A DNA stretch of 64,000 nucleotides from Patescibacteria group bacterium (GCA_028712155.1 JAQTQO010000002.1:11851-75850); one strand, 5' to 3'; shown: positions 45,454-58,000, numbered from the stretch's first letter. Made by a program: numbers and translations. Notes: generated by a model not told the origin, from the sequence alone.

Positions 45454-46533
45454 TTATCCGTATCCCCGGATCATCATCCGCAGATTCTCCGGATCAATCG
45501 CTTCCGCCAGCGCCGCCGCGCCGGAGATCGTACCGGCCTTCACCAGCGCCGACAACGACTGGTCGAGACTGACCATTCCTTCCTGCTGGGATGTCTGCAG
45601 CACTGACTGCAGCTGTGCCATGCGGCCGTCGCGGAACAACGACCGCGTCGCCGGCGTGGCCGTGAGCACCTCCAGCGCCGCCACCCGTCCGCCGGAGATC
45701 CGCGGGAGCAAGCGCTGGCAGACCACTGCTTCAAGGCATTCCGCCAGCTGCTCCTGGGCCAACCCCCGGTTCTCGCTCGGGTACACGGCGATCATCCGCT
45801 CGATCGCCTGCACGGCCGAAACGGCGTTCATGACCACGTAGACCAGCCGCCCGAACGCGGCCAGTTCGATGGCCGCACGCAGGGTGCCCGGCTCATCATT
45901 CTCGCCGACCAGGATCACCGTCACGTCCTCCTGGTTGCATTCCTCGAGCGCCTGCAGGAAACTCGGCACGTCCCGGCCGACTTCGCGCTGCACCACGATG
46001 CTTTTCGCGCTGGTGATCAAATACTCCACCGGCTGCTCAATCGTCAAAATATTCTCCGAGCGGGTTTCGTTCACCTGCTGCACGATCGCCGCCGCCGTCG
46101 TGCTGCGCCCGGAATTATAGGGACCGGACACGATGACCAAACCGCGGCGAATTTCCACCAAACGGGCAATGGCCTGAGGCAGGCCGAGCTGCTGTAGATT
46201 CGGCACGGTCGTGGGCACCAGCCGCAAGGTGAATGCCAATCCCCCCCGCTGGTAGTACGCCGTCACCCGCAGCCGGAGCTTGCCTTCGAACAGAAAGACG
46301 AAACGCACCAAGCGATGCCGCTCAAGCGCTTCCTGCTGCGCAGCGTCGAGCAGCTCGCCTTTGAGCTCTTCCAAAAAATCCTTGGTCAGCACCTCGGCGT
46401 CGGTCAGTTCGATCAAACCGGAATCCATGCGCAGCACCGGCAATCCGCCGGCGAGCAAGTGGATGTCCGAAGCCTGACGCTTGGACGCCATCCCGATAAT
46501 CTTCCCCAGCAAAAGGTGAATGGCCGTTTTCAT
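45454..46533 (-). CDS. PilT-like retraction ATPase homologue with degenerate catalytic motifs (likely pseudo-ATPase)
   Basis: PilT-like N-terminus (ASDIHLLAGGLPVLRMDSG). The Walker A motif is GPYNSGRST, with K replaced by R. The Asp box is TIEQPVEY, against canonical TIEDPIE. The Walker B region is VILVGENDE. The His box is RLVYVVMNAV, with both His lost. Start overlaps the upstream response-regulator gene. Confidence 0.7.
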   Translation of the reverse strand: MKTAIHLLLGKIIGMASKRQASDIHLLAGGLPVLRMDSGLIELTDAEVLTKDFLEELKGELLDAAQQEALERHRLVRFVFLFEGKLRLRVTAYYQRGGLAFTLRLVPTTVPNLQQLGLPQAIARLVEIRRGLVIVSGPYNSGRSTTAAAIVQQVNETRSENILTIEQPVEYLITSAKSIVVQREVGRDVPSFLQALEECNQEDVTVILVGENDEPGTLRAAIELAAFGRLVYVVMNAVSAVQAIERMIAVYPSENRGLAQEQLAECLEAVVCQRLLPRISGGRVAALEVLTATPATRSLFRDGRMAQLQSVLQTSQQEGMVSLDQSLSALVKAGTISGAAALAEAIDPENLRMMIRGYG

Positions 46534-46910
46534 ACCTTGATGACCGCCTTAATTTTTTTGACTACTTCCGACGGCATAAAATGCGCCTTGATCAGGTAGT
46601 CGGCCGCCCCAAGCTCCAATCCCCGCCGCACTTCGTCCCGCTGGCTCAAGTTGGTCAGTAAGATGACCGGGATGGCTTTACCCGCCGGGTCTTCGCGCAG
46701 TGTTTTGAGCACCTCAAAGCCGTCCATCTTGGGCAGAATGATATCCAGCAGCACCAGATCCGGGTGTTTCTCGCGCGCGAGTTTCAAACCTTTTTTGCCG
46801 TCGGCAGCCGTCACCACCTCAAACCCTTCAAGGTTGAGCTTGGTGGCATACAGTTCGGACAGAAACTCATCGTCTTCGACCAGGAGAATGACGGGTTTTG
46901 ACTTGGGCAT
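46530..46910 (-). CDS. Single-domain CheY-like response regulator (PilH/PilG-like)
   Basis: 126 aa. ...ILLVEDDEFLSELYATKL...DLVLLDIILPKMDGFEVLKTL... contains the receiver-domain residues (DD...D...K). It is embedded between pilB and the pilT-like gene. Confidence 0.8.
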   Translation of the reverse strand: MPKSKPVILLVEDDEFLSELYATKLNLEGFEVVTAADGKKGLKLAREKHPDLVLLDIILPKMDGFEVLKTLREDPAGKAIPVILLTNLSQRDEVRRGLELGAADYLIKAHFMPSEVVKKIKAVIKV

Positions 46911-46999
46911 AGGCTAAAGTTGGCGGGCAAGATAAGCGCAAAACGTAAAAATTGCAGCGTAAATTTCAAAACTTTGTAAATGTTTCTCGCTTAACGCTT

Positions 47000-48730
47000 T
47001 TACAGTTTCGTCACCCGATAGATCTCCTCCAACGTGGTTTTACCTTGCAGCACCTTCACCAGCCCGTCCTGCCGGAGGGTAATATACTCCTGCTTGCCAA
47101 GCTGGGTCTCAACGTCCTTGCCGCGGAATCCGGTCGTAATGAGCTCCTGCAGCTCCGGAGTGAACTCCACGACTTCCGCCACCGCGATCCGTCCGAGGTA
47201 ACCGGTGTTCCCGCACCGCGAGCATCCCTTACCCTTCCAGAACTGAAATTTCTCCCGCGACAGATCGGTCGGCCAGTGTTTGTTGGGGACCGCCGCAATT
47301 TCGGCCGCCAGGCCCTTTTCCATTACGGCCGGCATCTTCAAGGGTTCGCGGCAATGCTCGCAGATCCGCCGCGCCAGCCGCTGCGCCACGACCGCGTTGA
47401 CCGTCGAGGACAGCAGGAACGGTTCCACTCCCATATCCAGCAACCGCGGCACCGCGCCGATCGCATCATTGGTGTGCAGCGTCGAGAGTACCAGGTGGCC
47501 GGTGAGGCTGGCGTGCGTCACCAGCTCCGCCGATTCCTGGTCGCGGATCTCCCCCAACATGATAATGTTGGGATCCTGCCGCAGGATCGAGCGCAATCCC
47601 GAGGCGAACGAGTACCCCACGTCCGGATTGATCTGGGATTGGTTGATGCCTTCGACCGAGTACTCGACCGGATCCTCCAGGGTGATGATATTGACTCCCT
47701 CCTTGTTGAGCAGCGTCAGCACGGTGTAAAGCGTCGTGGTCTTGCCGGATCCCGTCGGGCCGGTCAGGAGCAGCAACCCGTGGGGCTTGGCAATACTGGC
47801 TACGATCGCCGCGATATGCGGCTCGGAAAATCCCAGGTCTTGCAGCGTCGGCACCTTGAAGCTGGCATCCAAAACGCGCATCACCACCTTTTCGCCTTCA
47901 AACAGCGGCAGGGTGGAGACGCGGAAATCCACGTCCCGCCCCTCGATCGTCAGGCGGATGCGGCCATCCTGAGGCTTGCGGGTTTCATCCAGCCGGAGAT
48001 TGGCGAGCACCTTGATCCGCGCGACGATCGCCGAATGGATGTAGCGCGGCAGATGCAGGCTGGTGCGCAGCATCCCGTCAATGCGGTAGCGGACCCGCGT
48101 TTCATGCGGCTCCGGCTCGATGTGGATATCGGAGGCGCGGCCGTCAATGGCGTGGCGAATGATCACCAGTACCATTTTGGAGACCGGCGCGGACCGGACG
48201 ACCTCCTGGAGGTCTTTGGGCATCACCCGCAGCTCTTCATCAACCTCTTTCTCCGTGACGCCGGCGAGCGCCTCCTCGGCTTCCTTATTGAGCTCGCCGT
48301 ACTGCCGGCTGACCTGCCGCAAGCCGCTCGCGGAGACAATATAGTAGCGGACCGTCAGGCTTCCCTCTTGCGCCAGGAAATCCACCGCTTCGATCGCCTT
48401 GAAATTCTGCGGGTCAACGAGAGCGACCTTGATTTCATTGCCGCGCCGCTCAAACGCAACCATCTGGTAATTCTCAGCGACCGTCGGGGGCAGCGTATTG
48501 AGTACGGCCGGCGGAATCGTCCGTCCGGCGAGATCAATGTAGGGCACGCCCAGCATTTCCCCCTTCACCTTGGTCAACGTCTCTTCGTCCACCCACCCTT
48601 CTTTCAGCATGGCGGATTCCACGCCGACAGGGTCCTCAGCGCCTTTGGCCCCCAGCTTGGTTGCCTGCTCGGCGGTGATCAATTTTCGCTCCACCAAGGC
48701 AGCGATGAGTTTTCCCGTTTCAACCGGCAT
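47000..48730 (-). CDS. pilB: Type IV pilus assembly ATPase PilB (GspE family)
   Basis: Intact Walker A GPTGSGKTTTLYT, Asp box TLEDPVEY, Walker B IIMLGEIRDQESA and His box GHLVLSTLHTNDA. Tetracysteine motif CEHC...CSRCGNTG. Confidence 0.9.
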   Translation of the reverse strand: MPVETGKLIAALVERKLITAEQATKLGAKGAEDPVGVESAMLKEGWVDEETLTKVKGEMLGVPYIDLAGRTIPPAVLNTLPPTVAENYQMVAFERRGNEIKVALVDPQNFKAIEAVDFLAQEGSLTVRYYIVSASGLRQVSRQYGELNKEAEEALAGVTEKEVDEELRVMPKDLQEVVRSAPVSKMVLVIIRHAIDGRASDIHIEPEPHETRVRYRIDGMLRTSLHLPRYIHSAIVARIKVLANLRLDETRKPQDGRIRLTIEGRDVDFRVSTLPLFEGEKVVMRVLDASFKVPTLQDLGFSEPHIAAIVASIAKPHGLLLLTGPTGSGKTTTLYTVLTLLNKEGVNIITLEDPVEYSVEGINQSQINPDVGYSFASGLRSILRQDPNIIMLGEIRDQESAELVTHASLTGHLVLSTLHTNDAIGAVPRLLDMGVEPFLLSSTVNAVVAQRLARRICEHCREPLKMPAVMEKGLAAEIAAVPNKHWPTDLSREKFQFWKGKGCSRCGNTGYLGRIAVAEVVEFTPELQELITTGFRGKDVETQLGKQEYITLRQDGLVKVLQGKTTLEEIYRVTKL

Positions 48731-48839
48731 AGTAAAAAAATTTCGAATTTTGAGTTTCGAATGAACCTGAAATGACCGGATGTTGCAGATCTTGCATCAT
48801 GGAATTTGTATGTTGCCGCGGCGAAATTATGAATGGTCG

Positions 48840-49178
48840 TTATTCGGCGGGTGTCGTGGTTGCGCCGGCAAACGCAGGCGGAGCAAAGGGATTCTCTTTT
48901 CCGGTCGCACCGGCCAGCACGGGCAGCGTGACGAACGTCCGCAGTCCCGTGTACTGCGGGCTCGTGAACAGCGGGTGATCCCCCCGAAACTGCGGCACCG
49001 AGGGGTAGCGCAGCTGATTTTGGCGGCTGAATTCCTCACTCCATTGCTTTGGGACTTGCTGCCGGTCGACTTGCAGAAAATTACCCAGCACCACCCACCC
49101 CATCCACCCGAGCGCGCCAAAGAGCACCAGAGCGAGCACAATGAGCTTCATTGGATTAATGGGTTTCGGCGCAAGCAT
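48840..49178 (-). CDS. Small membrane protein in pilus operon (PilP-like?)
   Basis: 112 aa with a single N-terminal TM (LIVLALVLFGALGWMGWVVL) and a Pro-rich tail. No family recognised. Confidence 0.35.
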   Translation of the reverse strand: MLAPKPINPMKLIVLALVLFGALGWMGWVVLGNFLQVDRQQVPKQWSEEFSRQNQLRYPSVPQFRGDHPLFTSPQYTGLRTFVTLPVLAGATGKENPFAPPAFAGATTTPAE

Positions 49179-49299: not shown

Positions 49300-49920
49300 C
49301 TACCGGGGCATATAGTACGCCCGCAGCGTAATCTGGTACGGTCCCCCGTTGGCCGAGGCAAAATTCACGCTCTCCACATCCAGCAGCCGCATATTCGCCT
49401 CCAGGCTATCCAAAAACCCGTTGAGTTGGAAATAATCGCCGCCGCTCACAGAAGCGACGATCCCGACGCTCGCAATGGCGGAAATCTTTGGCACTGCCCC
49501 GACGACCTGCTCGGACGCAACGGTGGCGGGATTGTCCGTCTTATTTTCGGCGAACTGGACGTTGTGCAGGAGAAAACCGCTTTGCTTGGCAATCGCTTCC
49601 ATCTGCACGAACAGCCCGGGCAGATCGGGCTCGACGGGCAGGATCGCCGTAAATTTATCCATGGCCGAACGGTTAAATTGGCTGTACTTATCATTGAGCA
49701 GCTGCAGGTCGCGCAGGTGCCCGTCGAGGTAGTCGGCATCAGCCTTAATGGACTCAAGATTGTAATGCTCCTGGGTCAAAATCTGCTGGAATCCGGTCTG
49801 CAGGAACCAGAAGTATCCGACCGCGAGCACCGTAATAATGCTCCCGATGACCAGCTCCGGATAAAAGCGCGTGAACAAGCGCAGGAAGAAGAGGCGAATT
49901 TTTGAGCCGCTAATGATCAT
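49300..49920 (-). CDS. pilO: PilO-like pilus assembly protein
   Basis: 206 aa. N-terminal TM, then a coiled-coil and a periplasmic domain. Sits between pilN and pilB. Start overlaps the pilN stop. Confidence 0.5.
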   Translation of the reverse strand: MIISGSKIRLFFLRLFTRFYPELVIGSIITVLAVGYFWFLQTGFQQILTQEHYNLESIKADADYLDGHLRDLQLLNDKYSQFNRSAMDKFTAILPVEPDLPGLFVQMEAIAKQSGFLLHNVQFAENKTDNPATVASEQVVGAVPKISAIASVGIVASVSGGDYFQLNGFLDSLEANMRLLDVESVNFASANGGPYQITLRAYYMPR

Positions 49921-51767
49921 GGCTGTGCGGTCAAGGGCTTAAAGAATACTTCCGGGCGGAGCGTCAACGATACGGAGAAATTCACCCCGAGAACCTGATC
50001 CGACTCGACATCCACCACGGCCGTTGCGCCGGTAATGGATACCCCCGCGAACAGATCGGACGCCTGCCGGAATGCCACCAATTGCCGTGCGACGCTCGAA
50101 TAATCCTTGCCGTGGGCAGCCAGCTGGAGCTTACCGTCACTCGCGGAAGCGAACGAGGCGAAGTACACGTCGTCAATGGTGGTGCGCTCCAGCGCGTTGA
50201 ACACCTGCGTCCAGTAGTAGTGGTGGGACAGCAGATTTCCCATCGAATCGAGTTCCTGCTGCAGCGTCTGGCTGCGGGCGACGATTTCCTGGTACTGGTC
50301 GATCTGCTCCTGATACAGTTTGATCCGGTTGGCATAGACGGCAATCTCGTTGCCGATGCGGTACTGGTACCAACCGATAATCTGGCTGATCACCACGATC
50401 ACAAACGTGCTCAACCCGACGGCCACCAGATACAGGAGAAACTTCCGCGACAAATACAGTTCCGGATGCCGCGCGAATTCTTCCGGAATCAAGTTGATCG
50501 CGATGGTCTTGGGTGGACGATGCACGGCGTGGCCGGCGACCGGTTTCGGCGGTACCGGCGGGGGCGTTTCCGTTTTTCCGGTTGGCGGCCGCAGTGGTGG
50601 CGGTGGAGGCGGCGGAGGAGCTGACTTGAGCGGCGGGGGCGGCAGCGGCGCGGGTTTAGGCAAAGCCGGCTTCACTTCGGCAACCATTGGCTGCGGTTTT
50701 GGTGGCGGGGGCGGCAAGGGTAAAGTTGAATATTTGACCGCTGCCACCACCGGCTGCGGTTTTACCGGTGGAACTGGCAGGGAAGGTTGCGGGACTATCG
50801 GGGGTTTTGCCGGTTTCGGCTTGCGCCGAAACAATCCGAGCAGCCACTGCCAAAGAGATCGGCGGGGACGCCGCGGCATGGCCGGTTTTGGCGCGGGTTT
50901 CAGCGGAGTTTTCACCGCAACCACCACGGGCGGCAGCGGTTTTACCGGCGGGGACGGCAGGGGCACGGACGGTTTTGGCAGGGGCGGTTTTACCACCGGT
51001 TTCGGTTTGGACGCAAACCAGCTGGAAAGCCACTGCCAGAAACTCCGGCGGTGCGGCTTGGGTACCGGCAGCACCGGTTTTTGCGCCGTCTTGATTTCCA
51101 CCGTGACGGTCCGCGTGGGAAGCGGGCGCGGTGCCGGAGGGAGAACCGGTGCGGGCTTTTGCGGCATGACTTTCGGCGCAGGTTTCGGCGGACGGGAAAA
51201 CCAGCTCGCGAGCCACTGCCCGAAACTCCGCCGGTGGGGTTTAGGGTGAACGGCTGCCGCGCGCAGGGCCAACTGATCGCGCTCGACAGCATGCACCTCC
51301 CGCTTGACGATCTCCGCCAGCTTCGCGGCTTCGGCTGCTTCCAAATGGCGGCTGGGTGGCGCGGTGACCGGCGGCGGGGCGGGTACTTTCTCCGGTAATT
51401 TATGCGGCGGGGCCGGCGGTTGGCGCTTCGGTATCGGCACCGAAAGGCCGCCGAAAATTCCGTGCGGACGTACGATGCGAATACGTTCCGACGGCGGGGG
51501 CGGCGGGGCAACCGGCGCCGGCGGCAATGCCTCGGGTAACGGCGTGAGCGGACGTTTCTGCGGCTCCGGCCGGCCGGCTCCCGAGCCGCCATGCTGAAGT
51601 TTCGCCTCTTCCGGACGGGGAGGGTTGGTGAGCGTGTATTCCACCACCTTCGGCGTCTTGCTCAAACGCCGGCGCTCCGCGGCTTCCCGTCCGCGCAGTT
51701 CGTCCGGTAAAAGATTAACGTCGGCCATGGAAATTTTGCTTGATGGTCGTGGCAAGTAGCTGGGCAT
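49917..51767 (-). CDS. pilN: PilN-like protein with ~420-aa Pro-rich repetitive N-terminal insertion
   Basis: The PilM-binding-type motif occurs twice: MADVNLLPDELR at the N-terminus and IAINLIPEEF just before the TM helix (LLYLVAVGLSTFVIVVI). The C-terminal periplasmic domain is PilN-like. Between the two motifs lies PxxP/KPxP-rich low-complexity sequence with three ~61-aa repeats. Confidence 0.6.
   Translation of the reverse strand: MPSYLPRPSSKISMADVNLLPDELRGREAAERRRLSKTPKVVEYTLTNPPRPEEAKLQHGGSGAGRPEPQKRPLTPLPEALPPAPVAPPPPPSERIRIVRPHGIFGGLSVPIPKRQPPAPPHKLPEKVPAPPPVTAPPSRHLEAAEAAKLAEIVKREVHAVERDQLALRAAAVHPKPHRRSFGQWLASWFSRPPKPAPKVMPQKPAPVLPPAPRPLPTRTVTVEIKTAQKPVLPVPKPHRRSFWQWLSSWFASKPKPVVKPPLPKPSVPLPSPPVKPLPPVVVAVKTPLKPAPKPAMPRRPRRSLWQWLLGLFRRKPKPAKPPIVPQPSLPVPPVKPQPVVAAVKYSTLPLPPPPPKPQPMVAEVKPALPKPAPLPPPPLKSAPPPPPPPPLRPPTGKTETPPPVPPKPVAGHAVHRPPKTIAINLIPEEFARHPELYLSRKFLLYLVAVGLSTFVIVVISQIIGWYQYRIGNEIAVYANRIKLYQEQIDQYQEIVARSQTLQQELDSMGNLLSHHYYWTQVFNALERTTIDDVYFASFASASDGKLQLAAHGKDYSSVARQLVAFRQASDLFAGVSITGATAVVDVESDQVLGVNFSVSLTLRPEVFFKPLTAQP
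50810..51245 (-). repeat. Three tandem ~185-nt coding repeats inside pilN (encode HRRSFxQWLxSWF-KPKP units)
   Basis: DNA-level near-repeats: aaccagctNgNNagccactgccNgaaactccgNcggtg at ~50835, ~51011 and ~51195. Protein repeats: KPHRRSFGQWLASWFSRPPKP, KPHRRSFWQWLSSWFASKPKP and RPRRSLWQWLLGLFRRKPKP. Confidence 0.6.
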
Positions 51768-51807: not shown

Positions 51808-52998
51808 TTATGCGATTTCTTTCATACCTAACCCGATCGCCACGGAAAACCGCGGCCCGATTTCGTCCAGTGCGGGTTTCAACTCTTCGGGGTACACCAC
51901 CCGTGCCCACGGATCGCCCAAAAAGACGCGGGTTTGCAGCAGATTGGTGAGATATGCCGGAAGGTTGGAAAGCAGCGAAGAACCGCCGGTCAGCACCACC
52001 CGTTCGATCGGCGGACGGCCCTGGCTCTTGTAGAGGTTGAGGCTATAGCGAATCTCATCCACAATCGGAGCGATGGCTTGCGCCACGGTGGCCGGAATGC
52101 CGCCCCCCACTTCGGCCGAACCGGACGCCTGCAGCCCGATGTCATACTTGAGCTGTTCGGCCCGGTCAAGGTTGACGTTCAAGGCGCTCGCGATCGCTTT
52201 CGTGATCGTCAGCCCGCCGACGGAAATGCTCCGGTTGAGGTAGGGAATGCCGGCCTGCACGATCATAATGTTGGTGACCGTAAAATCGAGATCCACCAGC
52301 ATGACCGTGGCCGGGTCCACCCCGACCAGACTGCGGATGAGGGCGAACGCTTCCGTGTCCAGGGCCAAGAGCGTTATACCGGCTTCGCGGAACAGAGACA
52401 GGTAGCGCCGCACCAGCGCCTTCGGCGCGGCCGTCAGCAAAATCCGGGTGTTGTGCCCGGTCTTGTGCCGGACGATCTTCAACAGCCGCATCCCGTCGAA
52501 GGAAAGGCGGTCACGCTTTTCGCCCTCGGTTTTGGCCGGCTGATCCGCCGCTTCCGACGGATCCGGCGGCAGGACGTCCCAGTGCAGGTTCATTTCATCC
52601 ATCGGCAGCGGGATGACTTTTTTGGCCTCCCACCGCACGGCCGCGGCGAGTTCCTTGGCGGAGAGTACGGGCAGCGTGATGACCGACGAGAAGACGGAAA
52701 AAGCCGGCAACGCGGAGATCGCCACGCGGCTGGAAATTTTTGCCTTGCGGCAGGTCTCCCGCAACAGCGCCGCCGTCAATTTCAAATCCTCCGGGTTTTC
52801 ATCTTTGGCCTGGAAATCAAGCGGATGGTCGAAGTACCCGTACGTGGACAAACGCGGTCTGCCCTTGTCATTTTTCAGCTCAACCACCTTGATGCTGTGG
52901 TTATCTACGTCAATGCCAAGGTAGTTTGCGGCGGCGGAAAACATGGCCATGGTAAAAATTGGTTCAATTTTGATGGCGGACAAATAATTTTCCCTCAA
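51808..52998 (-). CDS. pilM: Type IV pilus assembly protein PilM (actin-like ATPase fold)
   Basis: ...MAMFSAAANYLGIDVDNHSIKVVELK... is a PilM N-terminus, followed by actin/FtsA-like domains. The true start is probably the internal Met at ~52950. Confidence 0.8.
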   Translation of the reverse strand: MRENYLSAIKIEPIFTMAMFSAAANYLGIDVDNHSIKVVELKNDKGRPRLSTYGYFDHPLDFQAKDENPEDLKLTAALLRETCRKAKISSRVAISALPAFSVFSSVITLPVLSAKELAAAVRWEAKKVIPLPMDEMNLHWDVLPPDPSEAADQPAKTEGEKRDRLSFDGMRLLKIVRHKTGHNTRILLTAAPKALVRRYLSLFREAGITLLALDTEAFALIRSLVGVDPATVMLVDLDFTVTNIMIVQAGIPYLNRSISVGGLTITKAIASALNVNLDRAEQLKYDIGLQASGSAEVGGGIPATVAQAIAPIVDEIRYSLNLYKSQGRPPIERVVLTGGSSLLSNLPAYLTNLLQTRVFLGDPWARVVYPEELKPALDEIGPRFSVAIGLGMKEIA

Positions 52999-53214: not shown

Positions 53215-54732
53215 CTAGCTGGAATCGTCCAGCGAGTAGTACCGGCAATCCAGTGCATCGTCGCTGGGATCGAAACCGGCTTCGGGGTACGGCAGCGGCG
53301 GCGAATCACCGTCGCGGAAAAGGAACGTCAGGAGATAAATGGCGTCGGAAACGCCGGCCCGGCCGGAATCGTCGGCGTCCGCGGCATCCCAACATGAGAC
53401 GACCGAACCATCCATGAACACGCCCCACAGCACGCCGATCACATCCCCCAGGTCAATGAAACAGTCGCCGTTCACATCACCGCGAAGGAACGGGATCAGT
53501 GGAGGCCTGGTCTTGAACGCCGTCAGGAGCGCTGGATCCGGCCACCCGCCGGATGATCCGGTAACCACATAGCTGTGGTCGGCAGCGACGCACACCGCGT
53601 AGGGACCGGAAGTGATGTCCTCACCGTACCGCTGTTGCCACAGCACCGCGCCTTGCGCGTCGGTTTTTGCCAGCGAGAACGCGCTGGTAAGGCCGTTATT
53701 GGTCGTCGCATTGCTGGCCAGGACATACCCACCGTCAGCGTCCGGGGTGAACGCCACCGGAAACGCCGACCATTCGTCCCACGCCGCCGGGTCCATCTCG
53801 CGCTGCCAGCGCAAATCGCCGTCACGGCCGATCTCCATCATCATGGGGTAAGCATTCGGCTGATGCCACGTGTGACCAAATACGACATAGCGGTCGGGCA
53901 GAGGAAGCCAGCAGACTGGCGTATGATCCAACGGCGTGCCGTCACTATTCGTCAGGCTGCCGTACGAAGACCGGGAAACCACTTGGCCGCCGGTGTCGGT
54001 TTGCACCAACAGCACCTGCCGCGGATTCCCCGCTGCAGCCGCGCCGGCCGTCGCTCCACACAACAGATAGCCGTCCGGACCGCCGCCGTCCGCAAACGTC
54101 TCGGCCACGCCGATCGCACCCGACTCACAGTCATCGAGTACGATAATTTGGCACCACTCCAGCAGGCCAGCGGCATCGGTTTTCACCAGGAAAATATCGT
54201 GGAGCCGCGCCATCCCGACCCCGATGGCGCCGCCGTCGCTGGTTTCCCGGACTTCGAGAATACACAACGTGGGCGCACCCTCCCACTCGACGTCGAGCAC
54301 CGAAACACTCTGCCACGCCAACACGCCGACTGCGCCGACCTTCAGTACCGTATACTCCGGAGGATCCGAATCGTGCGAAACAGTACCGGCGAGAACAAAG
54401 CCGCCGTCGGCTGTCGCTTGCGCCGCAGTGACGAATTCGTGCGTCCCGCCGCCAAAGACTTCCTGAGACACCAGGGCGCCGTCCGGACCGACCCGCACGA
54501 AGAATGCGTCGGACACGGAACTCGAGTCCGGCAGCATTTCGCAGACGGATCCGACGATGGCGTAACCGCCATCGGCTGTCGGCTGAACTGCGCGGGGGCA
54601 CGTGCTGAAGTACGCACTGTCGTAGGTGGAAATCCACGAAAGCGCGGGCGGCTCCCCTTCGGCTCCCGGCACATGCGGAAGCGACAGCAGGAATCCGACA
54701 ACTGCGGCGACCATCAATCGTGACGTAGCCAT
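53215..54732 (-). CDS. Secreted repeat protein (beta-propeller-like ADGG repeats) with C-terminal dockerin-like module
   Basis: ATG at 54732 with SD AAGGAGGT. Signal peptide MATSRLMVAAVVGFLLSLPHVPGAEG. Recurring ...ADGGYAIVGS / ADGGFVLAGT / SDGGAIGVGM / ADGGYVLAS... units. The C-terminal DVNGDCFIDLGDVIGVL...DADDSGRAGVSDAIYLLTFLF resembles the duplicated Ca-binding loop plus helix of type I dockerins. Confidence 0.5.
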   Translation of the reverse strand: MATSRLMVAAVVGFLLSLPHVPGAEGEPPALSWISTYDSAYFSTCPRAVQPTADGGYAIVGSVCEMLPDSSSVSDAFFVRVGPDGALVSQEVFGGGTHEFVTAAQATADGGFVLAGTVSHDSDPPEYTVLKVGAVGVLAWQSVSVLDVEWEGAPTLCILEVRETSDGGAIGVGMARLHDIFLVKTDAAGLLEWCQIIVLDDCESGAIGVAETFADGGGPDGYLLCGATAGAAAAGNPRQVLLVQTDTGGQVVSRSSYGSLTNSDGTPLDHTPVCWLPLPDRYVVFGHTWHQPNAYPMMMEIGRDGDLRWQREMDPAAWDEWSAFPVAFTPDADGGYVLASNATTNNGLTSAFSLAKTDAQGAVLWQQRYGEDITSGPYAVCVAADHSYVVTGSSGGWPDPALLTAFKTRPPLIPFLRGDVNGDCFIDLGDVIGVLWGVFMDGSVVSCWDAADADDSGRAGVSDAIYLLTFLFRDGDSPPLPYPEAGFDPSDDALDCRYYSLDDSS

Positions 54733-54794
54733 GACCGACCTCCTTTCCAAGGGTTTCCATTCGGTCAACCAGGTTTGCACCGAAGCGTGCGAAC

Positions 54795-55035: not shown

Positions 55036-58000
55036 CTACTCCCACACCGGCAGGGCGCCGATCACCGCCTCCAAACCGGGCGGCGGGTTGGTCAAAATCC
55101 TCCCGTCATAGATGATTTGTTCCGCCGGATCGGAAATGTTGTTATATGTGCGCTGGAAGAGATATTTGCGCGCCACCATAATGCCGTGCACAGTCAACTT
55201 GGATGAGCCGACCAAGGTATCAATGGCGCCGCAATCAACCAATAACGACCCCGTCGAATCGCACCTCATGTTCGCATACGCCGGCCGGCCCAGCGCGATC
55301 AGGCTGCTGTCCAGTTGGCTCACGGCCGGAGCGATGTTGATGCCGCCGAGCGCAATCCACGTGGCCGAAGCAACATGACTGGGCTTGGCCGGAGTTGTCA
55401 TCCCATAAATTGTCCCAGCGTTGAACGTCAAATTTCCCTTGATGAGGAAGAGTCCGGCGCCGTTCCTATTGATGCTCGCCGAACCGCTATTAAACGTCCA
55501 CGGCTTGGAAATCGTGCAATTACCGTCGTAGTAATAAATGGCCCCATTCAGGACACTATCGGTGGCCACCCATGGCGGGGTAGTGGCATTGGGATCCGTA
55601 CAGATCGTACCAAGATTTATAACCTTATTGCTGCCGTAACGCTGCCGCAGCTTTCCGATGACCGTCCCGGGGTCGTCGGCGTTGCTCGAATTGTAGAACT
55701 TCTTCGCTTCGTCATTGTATCCCTGCAAGAACCACAGGCTGCCACCGGGCGTGGTGAAGTCATTCTTGTAGCTGGGGAACGCCATTGCGGTATAGCCGGG
55801 CAGTTGGCCGGTGCCTCCGAAGGCGGTGGAATCGCTCGTCCATTTCGTGATCGTACCGCCGCTCTTAATCAGAAACGTCGCGTTGTTCAAACCGGACTGG
55901 AACTGGGCATTGAGACTGCCGCCAACGAACACATCGCCAAATTTGGTTTGCAGCCACGGTTTTGACTCGGAGAACAGCGGATCACTCTCGTTGCCGAAAT
56001 CATCCACGGCAATAATGTTGTACAACAGGCCGTTCTGTATTCTCGAATACAGCACCGTCGTGCACGTGCCGCTCCCGCAGTTGATCTGGCCAAGGTTGGC
56101 GTCAAAGGTCGGATATAACGTCTGCCAGTCGCAACTCTCGTGGGGCAAACCGCTCGCCAAAATGCACTTCCCGGTTCCGCACGCGGCATTCAGCGCTTTC
56201 CCGTAGCAATTTTGCCCGCTGACCGTACAGCGGTAACGGTGGATATCCTCCCATGCCCACGGCCCGTTGGTGGCGTCGCCGTCGCCTAATGAACCGCCCC
56301 GCCGGCAGGTGCCTTCCGTGCCCGGGCACACCGCGCCATCAACGTAACAAGGGTTGTCGCTCACGCTGCAGTAGAGCAGCGGATTTCTGACCTCATCGGC
56401 ATTGGTGCCGTACCAAATCTCATAGTGGGCGCCATACCGGTTGCCGCTGACGGTATTGTACGGGGTCCACGAACGGATTTCCGGATCGGCACTGCTGGTT
56501 TCTTCATCCGTTGATTCGACCGGCGTAAACGTAATGGTCCGGCTGTAGATGTTGATATTACCGCACAAACTGATGGGAATCGCCGCAGAGGGCATCCCCC
56601 AGCTCGGTGACTGATCAGGGAAGCTGGGCGACTGCAGGTCCATCATCACCCGCTGCCGCCGGGTCCAGTTGTTGTACCACGGTTTCGTCGAATCTTTGGC
56701 GCACGCGAAGTTGCATACACCGCCGTACGCGGCGCAATTGGTCGCCGGGTTGCTGCACAGGTCAACCGACGACGTCCGGACCCCGGCCGACCAGCACGGC
56801 AAATCTCCCGAGCACTTCACGCTGTCATTGGCGAACAGTTCCAGCCAGAACGGGGTCCGTATATTCTGGTTGCGGATATAGGTCGCGGATTGGCCCAAGC
56901 TGTCATATGCGTCCCAGTAGAAATCAATCGTGCTGACGTAACCCAAGTTCCAGTTTGGAGTGAACAGTGTGGTGACGTTATTCCAGTCCCGCGCCAAGAC
57001 GGGAGTGGTCACGCCAATTTGCGGGAAAAGGGTATCTGAACCGGGAATATGGTCATCCGGATTATCCACGGACGGCTGCGCCCAGCTGCACGGCTGGGTA
57101 CACCAGGGATAACCATACGGGTTGCCCATGGCGTTGGTCGTCGTGGCGGTGGGCAAGGAACCGTACGCTCCGATACCGGGTTGAACGGGCAGCTGGGCAT
57201 GGTTGTAGGTGCCAACCCGGGCGATGCTGTAGAAATAATTCCAAGCCCAATACGTGCCTTTCCAGCCACGCACAATCGGGTCGGTCCACTCCGGCTGCGG
57301 GGATTCCCTGGCAAACATCAAACCCACCGAAAGGTTGCTGCCCTCGAAATCCCCGAACTGTGCCTTGATTTTAAACTTGCCGCGGGCGTTTTCGCGCTGC
57401 TCCAGCGTCCAGGAGCGCAGCGGCTGCAGCTGTGTGGTAAATGAGGTCGGAACTCCGCTGGCATTGGCGGAAAACCGCGCATACGGTGCCACGCAGCTTT
57501 CCGCGCTGTTCGGCACACCTTTCTCATACGGGTAGTTGGTGTTCAGCTTGAGCGACGTGCCGGCGGCAAACGCGAAATCATTGGCTCCCGCAAACGACCG
57601 GTTGCCGCAATAGCTCAAGTCAACGCTGCAGTCGGGGTCAGATCCAGTGGGACAGTCCGCATCACACACGCTGTCGGAGACTGGCAGGCAGCAGTCGTTG
57701 ACGGCGTTCGTGCAAATGTGCCCGATCAGTTTCGACCAGCAATCTTCGCCATCAACAGGGCCACCATCAGTTCTCGTCGCGCAATCCGGATCGCACTGCT
57801 GATCGTTGACTGCCAGACAGCAATTATCCTTGCGGCCGGTACAGGTGGCGGTGCAGTCCGGATCCTGATAATTGTAGCTATGATCTTTGCAATCAAGGTC
57901 GCACATCCCGTCAGCAGTTGTGCTGCACACACCACAATCAGGATCAAGGCCGGCGGCGCACTGCTGGTCGCAGATGCCGTTCACCGACGGGTCGCACACC

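What the first reader, a model, noticed from the sequence alone, without database searches (positions are those of the whole stretch)
49917..51767. PilN with duplicated PilM-binding-type motif separated by a 420-aa Pro-rich spacer containing three HRRSFxQWLxSWF repeats
Canonical PilN has a short cytoplasmic N-terminus (INLLP motif bound by PilM) directly followed by the TM helix. Here MADVNLLP sits at the N-terminus and IAINLIP sits next to the TM. Between them is a long PxxP/KPxP-rich segment with three ~61-aa repeats. Each repeat carries a basic-aromatic amphipathic element (RRSFGQWLASWF, RRSFWQWLSSWF, RRSLWQWLLGLF).

This could tether a second PilM, bind the membrane, or recruit SH3-like or peptidoglycan-associated partners. 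The insertion is also visible as ~185-nt DNA repeats.
Basis: seen in the sequence. Interest (0 to 1): 0.55.

Follow-up and report, generated by a model that had tools for sequence, protein, structure and literature searches.

The report
PilN with two PilM-docking motifs
In this candidate-phyla-radiation bacterium, the pilus-assembly protein PilN is a complete normal PilN preceded by a ~400-residue floppy, positively charged cytoplasmic arm that carries three probable membrane-gripping helices and ends in a second copy of the peptide that docks the actin-like protein PilM; over a hundred related protein clusters share this layout and I found no description of it in the literature I could search.

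Summary
ORF 49917-51767 (-) lies between pilM and pilO. It has VNLLP at the N-terminus, INLIP 19 residues before the only TM helix, and about 400 residues (28% Pro) between them. The spacer holds three diverged 61/62-aa repeats with W/F-rich basic amphipathic cores.

It is not an artefact or a one-off. A profile of the C-terminal domain retrieves relatives that nearly all carry extensions of 40-570 aa. These begin M-x-D-I-N-L-L-P-E-E-L-R and have D-V-N-L-I-P-E-E-L 14-24 aa before the TM. The lineages are Parcubacteria-type Patescibacteria (Buchanan-, Komeili-, Kerfeld-, Portnoybacteria). MinD-MTS-like helices are about 40-fold enriched in the linkers.

The proximal motif aligns with the N-terminal motif of Myxococcus PilN, so the last ~200 aa form a complete canonical PilN. 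The likely start is ATG 51728 (603 aa).

Pro-richness is not conserved, so SH3- or peptidoglycan-type readings are unsupported.

Best explanation (inferred, untested): a PilN with two PilM-docking sites, whose disordered arm is pinned to the membrane by the amphipathic helices. It is a new variant of a known kind.

The parts
49917..51767 (-). Longest ORF of the long-form pilN (616 aa from ATG 51767). The most likely CDS is 49917..51728 (603 aa).
   Evidence: An identical 603-aa NCBI protein, 'PilN domain-containing protein [Patescibacteria group bacterium]', was found. Start-codon reasoning rests.
51693..51728 (-). Distal (N-terminal) PilM-binding-type motif MADVNLLPDELR (aa 14-25 in 616-aa numbering).
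   Evidence: Family consensus is M-x-D-I-N-L-L-P-E-E-L-R-K-K-E. The same motif forms the N-terminus of short canonical PilNs next to pilM in Omnitrophota and Planctomycetota MAGs. Coordinates.
51621..51650 (-). Conserved short strand-like element KVVEYTLTNP (aa 40-49), part of the N-terminal module.
   Evidence: It recurs as IEMTGP, VEYTNP, IELTAP or FDIxLxxP in distant family members. AF2 confidence here is low. Its function is unknown.
51423..51464 (-). Degenerate amphipathic element HGIFGGLSVPIPKR (aa 102-115).
   Evidence: It aligns with SFFSRLFGRK (P0007), GIFGSLFSRP (P0009) and IWERLFGAPKK (P0006) in alignment A1. Its hydrophobic moment is only 0.47.
51249..51347 (-). Predicted charged alpha-helix HLEAAEAAKLAEIVKREVHAVERDQLALRAAAV (aa 141-173).
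   Evidence: AF2 predicts a helix at residues 131-158 of the 603-aa form, pLDDT about 71-74. It is conserved in the close relatives P0002-P0005.
51066..51248 (-). Repeat unit 1 (aa 174-234). Amphipathic core HRRSFGQWLASWFSRPPKP lies at 51180-51236.
   Evidence: Hydrophobic moment 0.75. AF2 predicts a helix at 169-177 of the 603-aa form.
50880..51065 (-). Repeat unit 2 (aa 235-296). Amphipathic core HRRSFWQWLSSWFASKPKP lies at 50997-51053.
   Evidence: Hydrophobic moment 0.72. AF2 predicts a helix at 230-238.
50694..50879 (-). Repeat unit 3 (aa 297-358). Amphipathic core PRRSLWQWLLGLFRRKPKP lies at 50811-50867.
   Evidence: Hydrophobic moment 0.67. AF2 predicts a helix at 292-298. This unit is absent from an 87%-identical relative, L050.
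50469..50507 (-). TM-proximal PilM-binding-type motif TIAINLIPEEFAR (aa 421-433), 19 residues before the TM segment.
   Evidence: Family consensus is L-D-V-N-L-I-P-E-E-L, 14-24 aa before the TM. N412, L413, I414 and P415 are invariant in alignment A3. The motif aligns with IRINLLP at residue 3 of M. xanthus PilN, 3jc8_Na.
50370..50441 (-). Single transmembrane helix FLLYLVAVGLSTFVIVVISQIIGW (aa 443-466).
   Evidence: It contains the highest Kyte-Doolittle 19-mer, score 2.56 at aa 443. AF2 models it as part of a continuous helix, pLDDT 90 or above.
49920..50369 (-). Extracytoplasmic PilN region: coiled-coil helix followed by a ferredoxin-like domain (aa 467-616).
   Evidence: AF2 pLDDT is 85-96. 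Foldseek matches the EpsL, PulL and XcpY periplasmic domains with target TM-scores of 0.70-0.80, and also PilO. Pfam PilN scores 19.4 bits, E 1e-3, below the 22.8 cutoff. Ten of 18 relatives match PF05137.
51808..52998 (-). pilM (actin/FtsA-like), the presumed partner of both motifs. The likely start is ATG 52950 (380 aa).
   Evidence: Pfam PilM_2 E 8e-36. PDB matches are M. xanthus PilM (3jc8) and T. thermophilus PilM (2ych), E about 7e-23. It is the only PilM homologue in the window, and one lies directly upstream of the long pilN in every locus with enough upstream DNA.
49300..49920 (-). pilO-like gene. Its ATG overlaps the pilN stop codon (ATGA).
   Evidence: Pfam PilO is weak, E 0.0086. 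Synteny is seen in L001, L003 and L004. The overlap is read from the sequence.

Best explanation
**What it is.** The gene encodes the PilN of a type IVa-like pilus machine in a Patescibacteria (Parcubacteria-type) bacterium. Its last ~200 residues form a complete, ordinary PilN: a juxtamembrane PilM-docking peptide, one TM helix, a coiled coil and a ferredoxin-like domain. In front of this sits a ~400-residue, strongly basic, intrinsically disordered cytoplasmic arm. The tip of that arm is a second copy of the PilM-docking peptide.

**Proposed mechanism.**
1. Both peptides can occupy the PilN-binding cleft of the single PilM encoded just upstream. Each PilN would then be bivalent for PilM. The two sites may differ in affinity (distal NLLP versus proximal NLIP).
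2. The three W/F-rich basic amphipathic helices lie on the inner leaflet like MinD/FtsA membrane-targeting sequences. They would keep the arm, and the PilM it carries, at the membrane surface instead of free in the cytoplasm.
3. The net effect would be to capture and concentrate PilM around the PilN-PilO platform, by higher stoichiometry or avidity, or by reaching across or between machines.

**Shown versus inferred.**
- Shown here: the architecture, its conservation, the collinearity of the C-terminal part with canonical PilN, the predicted helices and the predicted disorder.
- Inferred: PilM binding by either motif, membrane binding by the repeats, and the functional consequence.
For: **Operon.** The order pilM-pilN-pilO-(112 aa)-pilB-receiver-pilT-pilC-pilin is present in the window and is syntenic in a relative.

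**Family-wide extension.** A profile of the proximal motif, TM and PilN domain, run against 1.84 billion cluster representatives, gave 499 hits at E<=1e-30. In nearly all of the top 150, the match starts at residue 100-570 of the protein.
- Of 141 sequences with an extension, 119 have a strict or relaxed N-terminal motif.
- Of the same 141, 138 have a strict or relaxed proximal motif.
- Most that lack the N-terminal motif have visibly truncated N-termini.

**Genome scan.** All 43 CPR-type genome loci found with the N-terminal pattern have the long form (42 of them with a recognisable proximal motif); pilM lies directly upstream in all 41 with enough upstream DNA. The two non-CPR loci have short canonical PilNs that begin MIEINLLP[DE]E.

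**The two motifs resemble each other.** They share [DE]-[IV]-N-L-[LI]-P-[ED]-[ED]-L at positions the search did not constrain.

**The two motifs co-vary.**
- ISLLP pairs with VSLIP in 3 clusters.
- IELLP pairs with [VI]TL[MI]P in 3 clusters.
- When the distal motif is canonical NLLP, the proximal is NLLP in 2 of 85. When it is not, the proximal is NLLP in 15 of 38 (Fisher p = 2e-7, uncorrected for phylogeny).

**Positional homology.** The profile aligns the proximal motif with residue 3 onward of M. xanthus PilN, 3jc8_Na.

**An internal motif can plausibly bind.** PDB entry 5eou is a PilM-PilN chimera whose 15 extra residues lie at the C-terminal end of PilM, as inferred from the shared alignment numbering. 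My recollection is that these are PilN residues 1-12. The PilN peptide therefore should not need a free N-terminus.

**Amphipathic repeats.**
- The repeat cores have the highest hydrophobic moments in the protein.
- Their 10-residue moments of 0.67-0.75 fall between MinD MTS (0.55) and FtsA MTS (0.89), with net charge +4 to +6.
- AF2 predicts helices exactly at the three cores and disorder elsewhere in the arm.
- MTS-like elements number 145 in 183 family linkers, against 3.6 +/- 1.7 in shuffles.
- The E. coli MinD MTS sequence KGFLKRLFGG is taken from PMC5471200.

**Established knowledge.** PilM binds the N-terminus of PilN in the IA-IC cleft (PMC7613929, PMC13039148).
Against: - No binding was tested.
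- The two motifs are not identical: the distal is NLLP and the proximal is NLIP. In several subfamilies the distal motif has lost Pro (INLLK, IDFLK, VDFVK), so bivalency may not hold everywhere.
- About half of the family linkers, mostly the shorter ones, have no element that passes my strict MTS pattern. Membrane pinning may therefore not be universal.
- The co-variation statistics are not corrected for shared ancestry. Including the genome-scan loci weakens the NLLP complementarity to 10 of 128 versus 15 of 38.
- The AF2 alignment had only 18 sequences.
- Amphipathic W/F-rich helices can also be protein-binding motifs.
Confidence: 0.5

Rival explanations
1. Only one motif is a working PilM site, and the other is vestigial or structural. 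In one version the distal canonical NLLP is the real site and the arm is merely a long leash. In the other version the proximal site is the real one and the distal copy is a decoy or autoinhibitory pseudo-ligand.
For: The motifs differ systematically, NLLP against NLIP or NLVP. A canonical NLLP tends to be kept at only one of the two positions. The distal motif degenerates in whole subfamilies while the proximal stays intact.
Against: Both motifs are among the few invariant positions in the family: N5, L6, L7, P8 and N412, L413, I414, P415 in alignment A3. A vestigial site should drift. The Asn position changes in parallel in both motifs in two subfamilies.
Confidence: 0.25
2. The amphipathic W/F-rich repeats are protein-docking motifs, for PilB, PilT, PilC, PilM or the adjacent receiver protein. 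They would not be membrane anchors. The arm would then be a multivalent scaffold.
For: Short amphipathic helices inside disordered regions often act as linear binding motifs. The operon encodes several cytoplasmic partners. Repeat number varies between 2 and 3 among close relatives.
Against: The sequence pattern is two bulky hydrophobic residues, two other residues, then two more bulky hydrophobics, flanked by K/R. The E. coli MinD MTS fits the same pattern. The core sequence is very loosely conserved across the family, with only its physico-chemical character kept. That fits lipid binding better than a specific protein interface.
Confidence: 0.15
3. The distal motif recruits a different actin-like protein, such as FtsA, MreB or a second PilM paralogue elsewhere in the genome. 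This would couple the pilus machine to another system.
For: FtsA binds the N-terminal cytoplasmic peptide of bitopic FtsN in the equivalent cleft (PMC7613929). Some Patescibacteria carry two PilMNO sets (PMC12206443).
Against: The distal motif is identical to the N-terminus of ordinary short PilNs that sit next to pilM. The 64-kb window contains only one PilM homologue. The rest of the genome was not available.
Confidence: 0.07
4. The Pro-rich PxxP/KPxP spacer recruits SH3-like or cell-wall-associated partners.
For: The window's spacer is 28% Pro and has many KPxP runs.
Against: Pro content in family linkers ranges from 0 to 29% with a median of 12%, and many relatives have K/E-rich linkers instead. 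The spacer lies N-terminal to the single TM of an N-in bitopic protein and is strongly basic, so it should be cytoplasmic.
Confidence: 0.02
5. It is an artefact: an assembly-generated repeat, a frameshifted fusion of two genes, or a mis-called start with the real protein beginning near the proximal motif.
For: Several database entries are short forms of 199-229 aa that begin just before the proximal motif. ATG 51767 has a GGAG five bases upstream, whereas ATG 51728 has none.
Against: The short entry that was traced (P0158) is an internal-start gene call on a contig where the long frame stays open up to the contig edge; the other short entries begin at matching positions and probably have the same cause. 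The DNA repeats are only 52-71% identical. The long ORF with both motifs recurs in more than 100 clusters at 50% identity and in 43 CPR-type genome loci. Most genes in the window have no Shine-Dalgarno sequence.
Confidence: 0.01

Closest known systems
Canonical PilN of type IVa pilus machines (Pfam PF05137; e.g. M. xanthus, T. thermophilus, P. aeruginosa)
   Same: It has the same pilM-pilN-pilO gene order and an INLLP-type PilM-docking peptide about 20 residues before a single TM helix. A coiled coil and a ferredoxin-like extracytoplasmic domain follow. The family profile aligns collinearly with M. xanthus PilN from residue 3.
   Different: Canonical PilN has a cytoplasmic tail of about 30 residues (PMC7613929). 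This protein adds roughly 400 residues (40-570 across the family). The added arm is disordered, basic, carries amphipathic helices and begins with a second copy of the docking peptide. The Pfam score for this protein is below the gathering threshold.
MinD and FtsA C-terminal membrane-targeting sequences (amphipathic helices)
   Same: The repeat cores are short, basic and amphipathic, with two pairs of bulky hydrophobic residues separated by two other residues. E. coli MinD KGFLKRLFGG (PMC5471200) fits the same pattern. The hydrophobic moments are comparable. As with FtsA, the helix would serve an actin-like protein at the membrane.
   Different: Here the helices are internal, repeated and located on the membrane protein's own tail. 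In MinD and FtsA the helix is at the C-terminus of the soluble partner. Membrane binding was not tested, and there is no evidence of homology.
FtsN-FtsA interaction, and ZipA or FtsZ linker-plus-peptide designs
   Same: A bitopic membrane protein presents a short N-terminal cytoplasmic peptide to the IA-IC cleft of an actin-like protein (FtsN-FtsA, PMC7613929). From my own knowledge, ZipA and FtsZ also use a long disordered linker that ends in a short docking element.
   Different: These belong to a different machine (the divisome) with different peptides. None is known to carry two copies of the docking peptide or internal amphipathic helices.
GspL of type II secretion, and the PilM-PilN fusion of Clostridioides difficile
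   Same: These are alternative ways of securing the actin-like module to the PilN-like TM protein. The periplasmic domain here matches the EpsL, PulL and XcpY folds. The C. difficile PilM-PilN fusion is noted in PMC6916266.
   Different: Those are covalent fusions of a folded actin-like domain. Here pilM remains a separate gene, and the extra cytoplasmic sequence is disordered with no folded domain.
PilN of Firmicutes and of Saccharibacteria TM7x
   Same: These are monoderm-type T4P systems with PilM, PilN and PilO and no secretin (PMC6916266, PMC6744442, PMC12206443).
   Different: S. sanguinis PilN is about 22 kDa, and Firmicute PilNs are reported to use a different motif. TM7x PilN1 is 245 aa with the PilN profile match starting at residue 4, so it has no long arm. 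The long form is therefore lineage-specific within Patescibacteria.

Membership tests
PilN (T4aP assembly/alignment subcomplex, PF05137) | Encoded between pilM and pilO in a T4P gene cluster | tested here: met
   PilM_2 scores E 8e-36 for the upstream gene. A weak PilO match lies downstream, followed by PilB, PilT, PilC and a pilin. The order is syntenic in L001. pilM lies upstream in every locus with enough upstream DNA.
PilN (T4aP assembly/alignment subcomplex, PF05137) | Cytoplasmic INLLP-type peptide about 15-30 residues before a single N-in TM helix | tested here: met
   The proximal INLIP is 19 residues before the only hydrophobic segment. Across the family the distance is 14-24 residues. 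The motif aligns with IRINLLP of 3jc8_Na. Topology is inferred from the charge bias.
PilN (T4aP assembly/alignment subcomplex, PF05137) | Extracytoplasmic coiled coil plus ferredoxin-like domain | tested here: met
   AF2 pLDDT is 85-96 with a helix-strand-strand pattern occurring twice. Foldseek target TM-scores are 0.70-0.80 to EpsL, PulL and XcpY, with PilO matches as well.
PilN (T4aP assembly/alignment subcomplex, PF05137) | Pfam PF05137 score above the gathering threshold | tested here: inconclusive
   This protein scores 19.4 bits against a cutoff of 22.8. Ten of 18 family members match at E<=0.01, the best at 1e-6. NCBIfam gave no hit.
PilN (T4aP assembly/alignment subcomplex, PF05137) | Short cytoplasmic tail (about 30 residues) with the motif at the extreme N-terminus | tested here: not met
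   The cytoplasmic part is about 430 residues. The motif next to the TM is internal, and a second copy occupies the N-terminus.
PilN (T4aP assembly/alignment subcomplex, PF05137) | Physical binding of the peptide to the PilM IA-IC cleft | not testable with these tools
MinD/FtsA-type membrane-targeting amphipathic helix | Short helix with one hydrophobic face rich in F, W and L, flanked by basic residues | tested here: met
   Hydrophobic moments are 0.67-0.75, against 0.55 for MinD and 0.89 for FtsA, with net charge +4 to +6. AF2 places helices at the three cores. Family enrichment is 145 observed against 3.6 expected.
MinD/FtsA-type membrane-targeting amphipathic helix | Located at the C-terminus of a peripheral protein | tested here: not met
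   The helices here are internal and repeated, within the tail of an integral membrane protein.
MinD/FtsA-type membrane-targeting amphipathic helix | Demonstrated lipid binding | not testable with these tools
   This needs liposome co-sedimentation or GFP-fusion localisation.
GspL-like protein or PilM-PilN fusion | Folded actin-like cytoplasmic domain covalently joined to the TM and ferredoxin-like domain | tested here: not met
   No Pfam domain is found in residues 1-430. AF2 predicts disorder there, apart from short helices. pilM is a separate gene.

The most novel reading that the evidence does not exclude
The bivalent PilN arm does more than raise PilM occupancy. Two docking peptides are separated by a long, membrane-pinned, polycationic disordered linker. 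This could cross-link PilM molecules from neighbouring PilN-PilO units, or from neighbouring machines. The result would be an extended PilM lattice or condensate-like layer under the membrane, a cytoplasmic organisation of the pilus base not seen in any studied T4P system. It might compensate for the missing secretin/PilP scaffold in these ultra-small monoderm cells. A variant of this idea is that internal initiation at the GTG (Val418) a few codons upstream of the proximal motif yields long and short isoforms that tune the network.
Probability: 0.15. Interest if true: 0.75.

Novelty: new variant of a known kind. Interest (0 to 1): 0.56.

Why it matters
- **Relevance to CPR biology.** Type IV pili are among the few conserved surface machines of CPR/Patescibacteria and are thought to be central to their host-dependent lifestyle (PMC6744442, PMC12206443). 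What PilM, PilN and PilO actually do in monoderm-type machines without a secretin is an open question (PMC6916266).
- **What a bivalent PilN would imply.** A clade-wide PilN with two PilM-docking peptides and MinD-like amphipathic helices suggests that the cytoplasmic face of these machines is built differently from the textbook 1:1 PilM:PilN ring.
- **Testable experiments.** The layout suggests peptide-PilM binding assays, stoichiometry measurements, membrane-targeting assays and cryo-ET of the basal body.
- **Annotation.** These proteins fall below Pfam and NCBIfam thresholds and are often labelled 'hypothetical' (the hits with source names). The repetitive arm also gives rise to truncated internal-start gene calls.

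Tried and rejected
- **AF2 chimera.** The docking of either motif could not be modelled.
- **Genome scan with the C-terminal profile (A2).** The scan that did run used only the N-terminal pattern, so it is biased towards sequences that have that motif.
- **Word-indexed homologue searches with profiles A2 and A4.** They returned only 8 and 14 hits with few names. The only taxonomic gain was Kerfeldbacteria.
- **Cluster look-up of 10 representatives.** It gave only one name.
- **The two motif peptides against PDB sequences.** Only chance hits were returned.
- **NCBIfam on PilN, PilO, the 112-aa protein and the 521-aa protein.** No hits.
- **Tandem Repeats Finder.** It did not see the 183/186-nt array because the repeats are too diverged.
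- **The Karuppiah & Derrick 2011 paper.** It is not held in the library, so PilM cleft residues were not compared.
- **'Short orthologues lack the insertion'.** Rejected. P0158 is an internal-start call on a contig whose long frame is open to the edge, and P0157 and P0012 begin at matching positions.
- **'SD supports ATG 51767'.** Considered and down-weighted. Most genes in the window lack a Shine-Dalgarno sequence. The region upstream of 51728 resembles the A/T-rich leaders of pilB and pilM. The 13 extra codons are not conserved in relatives.
- **Literature searches.** Searches combining PilN with Patescibacteria, CPR, INLLP, disordered/linker and amphipathic/proline-rich terms found no description of this architecture. 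Most subscription-journal papers are outside that library.

Full report
**1. What is in the sequence**

The minus-strand ORF 49917..51767 encodes 616 aa from its first ATG. It lies in a compact minus-strand pilus cluster:
- pilM (51808..52998; Pfam PilM_2 E 8e-36)
- this gene
- a pilO-like gene (49300..49920), whose ATG overlaps the stop codon of this gene
- a 112-aa single-TM gene
- pilB
- a receiver-only response regulator
- a pilT-like ATPase
- pilC (T2SSF)
- a pilin gene with an N_methyl motif

- VNLLP is at aa 17-21.
- INLIP is at aa 424-428, which is 19 residues before the only strongly hydrophobic segment (aa 443-466).
- The spacer between them is about 400 residues and 28.5% Pro.
- The cores RRSFGQWLASWF, RRSFWQWLSSWF and RRSLWQWLLGLF start at aa 179, 240 and 302.

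These features are not chance.
- Two matches to [IVLM]N[LF][LIV]P occur in 0.01% of shuffles of the protein.
- The three repeat units (aa 174-234, 235-296, 297-358) are 37-52% identical. Their alignment scores are 5-10 SD above shuffles.
- The DNA repeat has a 56-nt core at spacings of 186 and 183 nt and 63-71% identity. Whole units are 52-62% identical. This is old, diverged duplication and not an assembly artefact.
- All but one of the 13 W/F residues in the first 410 residues of the 603-aa form fall inside the three cores.

**2. Start codon**

NCBI annotates an identical protein of 603 aa starting at MADVNLLP, named 'PilN domain-containing protein [Patescibacteria group bacterium]'. Relatives begin at the equivalent M-[AV]-[DE]-[IV]-N-L-L-P.
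- In L001 this ATG lies 5 nt after the pilM stop codon.
- The DNA upstream of it is unrelated in L001, L003 and L004.

ATG 51767 does have a GGAG five bases upstream. However, most genes in the window have no Shine-Dalgarno sequence and instead have A/T-rich leaders. The leader of ATG 51728 (caagcaaaatttcc) resembles those of pilB and pilM. I therefore take 51728 as the start. In either case the motif is at or near the N-terminus.

No Met codon lies near the proximal motif. A GTG (Val418) a few codons upstream of it cannot be excluded as a minor internal start.

**3. It is a family trait and not a one-off**

The closest homologues (P0002-P0005, 494-599 aa) keep both motifs and two or three repeats. 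Homologues at 24-31% identity (P0006, P0007, P0009, P0011) also keep the plan:
- They begin M-x-INLLP.
- They have VNL[IV]PE[ED] just before the TM.
- They carry W/F-rich basic helices such as SAWQRFSAWFKKLF and SFFSRLFGRKK.

I built a profile of the proximal motif, TM and PilN domain (alignment A2) and ran it with HMMER against 1.84 billion cluster representatives.
- It gave 7,470 hits at E<=1e-3 and 499 at E<=1e-30.
- In nearly all of the 150 best hits, the match starts at residue 100-570 of the protein. A long N-terminal extension is therefore the norm.

Counts across the whole protein set fetched by then:
- 141 sequences have an extension (TM start at residue 80 or later).
- 119 of these have a strict or relaxed N-terminal motif.
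- 138 of these have a strict or relaxed proximal motif.
- Most that lack the N-terminal motif are visibly truncated, for example MLPDDLRQKE or sequences starting at a contig edge.

The apparent short forms of 199-229 aa are gene-calling artefacts where checked. In L050 the long frame is open from the contig edge through two repeats into the 'short' gene. That relative is 87% identical in the C-terminal part yet has two repeats instead of three, so repeat number is evolutionarily labile.

A genome scan with the N-terminal pattern gave 45 loci.
- 43 loci carry the long form; 42 of them also have a recognisable proximal motif. Their record titles include Parcubacteria group, Candidatus Buchananbacteria, Komeilibacteria, Portnoybacteria and 'Patescibacteria group'. 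Some carry placeholder titles such as 'uncultured Gammaproteobacteria' or simply 'bacterium', which I could not verify.
- The other two are an Omnitrophota MAG and a Planctomycetota MAG. Both encode ordinary short PilNs, MIEINLLPDEF... and MIEINLLPEEL..., with the TM at residue 22-32.

A pilM homologue lies directly upstream in every locus with enough upstream DNA. The 64-kb window has only one pilM.

The divergent MAVDFVKSDGG subfamily belongs to Candidatus Kerfeldbacteria.

The trait is not universal in Patescibacteria. Saccharibacteria TM7x PilN1 is 245 aa, and the PilN profile match starts at residue 4 (supplement of PMC12206443).

**4. Anatomy**

The AF2 model used an 18-sequence alignment and 603-aa numbering. 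It shows:
- a confident TM helix continuing into a long coiled-coil helix (423-502)
- a ferredoxin-like domain (506-595) at pLDDT 85-96
- short helices exactly at the three repeat cores (169-177, 230-238, 292-298)
- a helix after the distal motif (10-23)
- a charged helix (131-158)
- disorder elsewhere in the arm

Foldseek matches the C-terminal domain to the periplasmic domains of EpsL, PulL and XcpY with target TM-scores of 0.70-0.80, and to PilO.

The family profile aligns collinearly with M. xanthus PilN (3jc8_Na, E 0.014). The proximal motif falls on IRINLLP at residue 3. So the last ~200 residues are a complete canonical PilN, and the proximal motif is positionally homologous to the known PilM-docking peptide. 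The arm is an addition whose tip repeats that peptide.

Residue-frequency tables for 108 family members give these consensus sequences:
- distal: M-x-D-I-N-L-L-P-E-E-L-R-K-K-E
- proximal: L-D-V-N-L-I-P-E-E-L

The similarity extends to positions -1, +5, +6 and +7, which my search pattern did not constrain.

**5. Evidence that the two motifs are functionally linked**

All counts here are unless stated.
- Where the Asn is replaced in the distal motif, it is replaced in the proximal motif too. ISLLP pairs with VSLIP in three clusters. IELLP pairs with [VI]TL[MI]P in three clusters.
- A canonical NLLP tends to be kept at one position only. When the distal motif is NLLP, the proximal is NLLP in 2 of 85. 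When the distal is degenerate (INLLK, IDFLK, VDFVK and others), the proximal is NLLP in 15 of 38 (Fisher p = 2e-7).
- These figures are not corrected for shared ancestry. Adding the genome-scan loci gives 10 of 128 against 15 of 38. I treat this as suggestive.

The pattern fits two sites that read the same PilM cleft but have diverged in role or affinity.

Established knowledge:
- PilM binds the N-terminus of PilN in the IA-IC cleft (Karuppiah & Derrick 2011, as cited in PMC7613929 and PMC13039148).
- PDB entry 5eou is a PilM-PilN chimera whose 15 extra residues lie at the C-terminal end of PilM, inferred from the shared alignment numbering. I recall these being PilN residues 1-12. An internal peptide should therefore be able to bind.

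**6. The repeats**

- The cores are the most amphipathic 11-mers in the protein, with hydrophobic moments of 0.65-0.71.
- Their best 10-mers score 0.67-0.75. E. coli MinD MTS KGFLKRLFGG (sequence from PMC5471200) scores 0.55. The FtsA C-terminal helix, quoted from my own memory, scores 0.89. The repeat cores have net charge +4 to +6.
- I used a pattern that the MinD MTS itself satisfies: two bulky hydrophobic residues, two other residues, two more bulky hydrophobics, at least two W/F, at least two nearby K/R, and no Pro. It finds 145 elements in 183 family linkers, against 3.6 +/- 1.7 in shuffled linkers.
- The elements are most frequent in long linkers. About half of all linkers have none under this strict rule.
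- A degenerate fourth element, HGIFGGLSVP at aa 102-111, aligns with SFFSRLFGRK and GIFGSLFSRP in relatives.

Pro-richness is not conserved. The family median is 12% Pro, with a range of 0-29%, and many relatives have K/E-rich linkers. The conserved properties are the two motifs, the basic charge, the disorder and the amphipathic helices. The PxxP/KPxP texture of this particular gene probably reflects drift in the composition of a disordered region in a 56% GC genome (my inference).

**7. Mechanism proposed**

These steps are inferred.
1. The arm is cytoplasmic. It lies N-terminal to the single TM of an N-in bitopic protein and has 70 K/R against 24 D/E.
2. Both peptides dock the single PilM, making PilN bivalent.
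3. The amphipathic helices lie on the anionic inner leaflet. They keep the arm and its PilM at the membrane plane.

The outcome could be higher PilM occupancy or avidity, a 2:1 PilM:PilN stoichiometry, or cross-linking across or between machines. An arm of 400 residues can in principle span tens of nanometres (my estimate).

Rivals:
- Only one site works, and the other is a leash end or a decoy.
- The helices are protein-docking motifs and not lipid anchors.
- The distal peptide recruits another actin-like protein.
- SH3-like or cell-wall partners bind the Pro-rich spacer (disfavoured).
- It is an artefact (effectively excluded).

**8. Comparison with what is known**

By operon position, topology, fold and profile collinearity it is a PilN. 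It fails the 'short tail' feature, and its Pfam score of 19.4 bits is below the 22.8 gathering threshold, with 10 of 18 relatives matching.

It works like a PilN to which two further designs have been added: a MinD/FtsA-style membrane tether, and a linker-plus-docking-peptide arrangement of the ZipA/FtsZ kind. It is not GspL-like, because the arm contains no folded actin-like domain.

Firmicute PilNs are small and are reported to use a different motif. C. difficile solves the tethering problem with a PilM-PilN fusion (PMC6916266).

Papers on CPR pili list PilM, PilN and PilO without noting this architecture (PMC6744442, PMC12206443). Six full-text searches found no description of it. Most subscription-journal papers are outside that library.

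**9. Verdict**

- It is a new variant of a known kind and is clade-wide in Parcubacteria-type Patescibacteria.
- Interest is moderate to fairly high for pilus and CPR specialists. It offers direct, inexpensive experiments and would change the expected architecture of the cytoplasmic face of these machines.
- The function remains inferred.

Noticed in passing
window 55036-63891 (-): A 2,951-aa Cys-rich protein with right-handed beta-helix and NosD repeats (Pfam Beta_helix E 1e-29, NosD E 5e-25) and many CDPDC-like Cys motifs. It lies in the same orientation, two genes upstream of pilM. A 2,840-aa counterpart occupies the same position in the relative L001, so it may be a pilus-associated surface protein or adhesin.
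   Followed up: partly
window 53215-54780 (-): A 521-aa protein lies between the giant protein and pilM. It has no convincing Pfam or NCBIfam match. By eye, its C-terminus has Asp-rich, dockerin/EF-hand-like repeats (DVNGDCFIDLGDV ... DADDSGRAGVSDAIYLLTFLF). A 490-aa gene sits at the same place in L001 and L002.
   Followed up: partly
window 48840-49178 (-): A 112-aa single-TM protein lies between pilO and pilB. It is conserved in size and position in relatives (112 aa in L001, 118 aa in L004) and has no family match. It is a candidate extra component of this secretin-less pilus machine.
   Followed up: partly
window 46530-46910 (-): A stand-alone response-regulator receiver gene (126 aa) is embedded between pilB and pilT. 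Its last codons overlap the pilT start by 4 nt. The same arrangement occurs in L001. It suggests phospho-control of pilus extension or retraction.
   Followed up: no
window 51621-51650 (-), and within each repeat unit (e.g. TVTVEIKT, VVVAVKT, VVAAVKY, MVAEVKP): Short strand-like elements recur in the arm, alternating hydrophobic with E, K or T residues. The first, KVVEYTLTNP, is conserved family-wide as IEMTGP, VEYTNP or IELTAP about 25-35 residues from the N-terminus. It could be a further binding element, for example by beta-augmentation onto a partner. AF2 gives it low confidence.
   Followed up: partly
upstream regions of genes across the window: Most genes have no Shine-Dalgarno sequence and instead have A/T-rich leaders just before the start codon. 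This affects start-codon calls in this genome.
   Followed up: partly
window 46952-48775 (+) and 50350-51249 (+): Long antisense ORFs lie opposite pilB (607 aa) and opposite the Pro-rich arm of pilN (299 aa, Gly-rich). They look like by-products of composition and codon bias and not like genes.
   Followed up: no
L050 (Logan SRR8426592 contig); proteins P0157, P0158 and P0012: Database entries for relatives are truncated to 199-229 aa. In the contig examined (L050), the gene caller picked an internal start and mistranslated the Pro-rich arm in another frame as a separate Arg-rich 'protein'. Long-form PilNs are probably under-counted and mis-annotated in public catalogues.
   Followed up: yes
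window 41311-43194 (+): A Wzy_C (O-antigen ligase-like) membrane protein lies just beyond the pilin genes. The same neighbour appears in L001.
   Followed up: no
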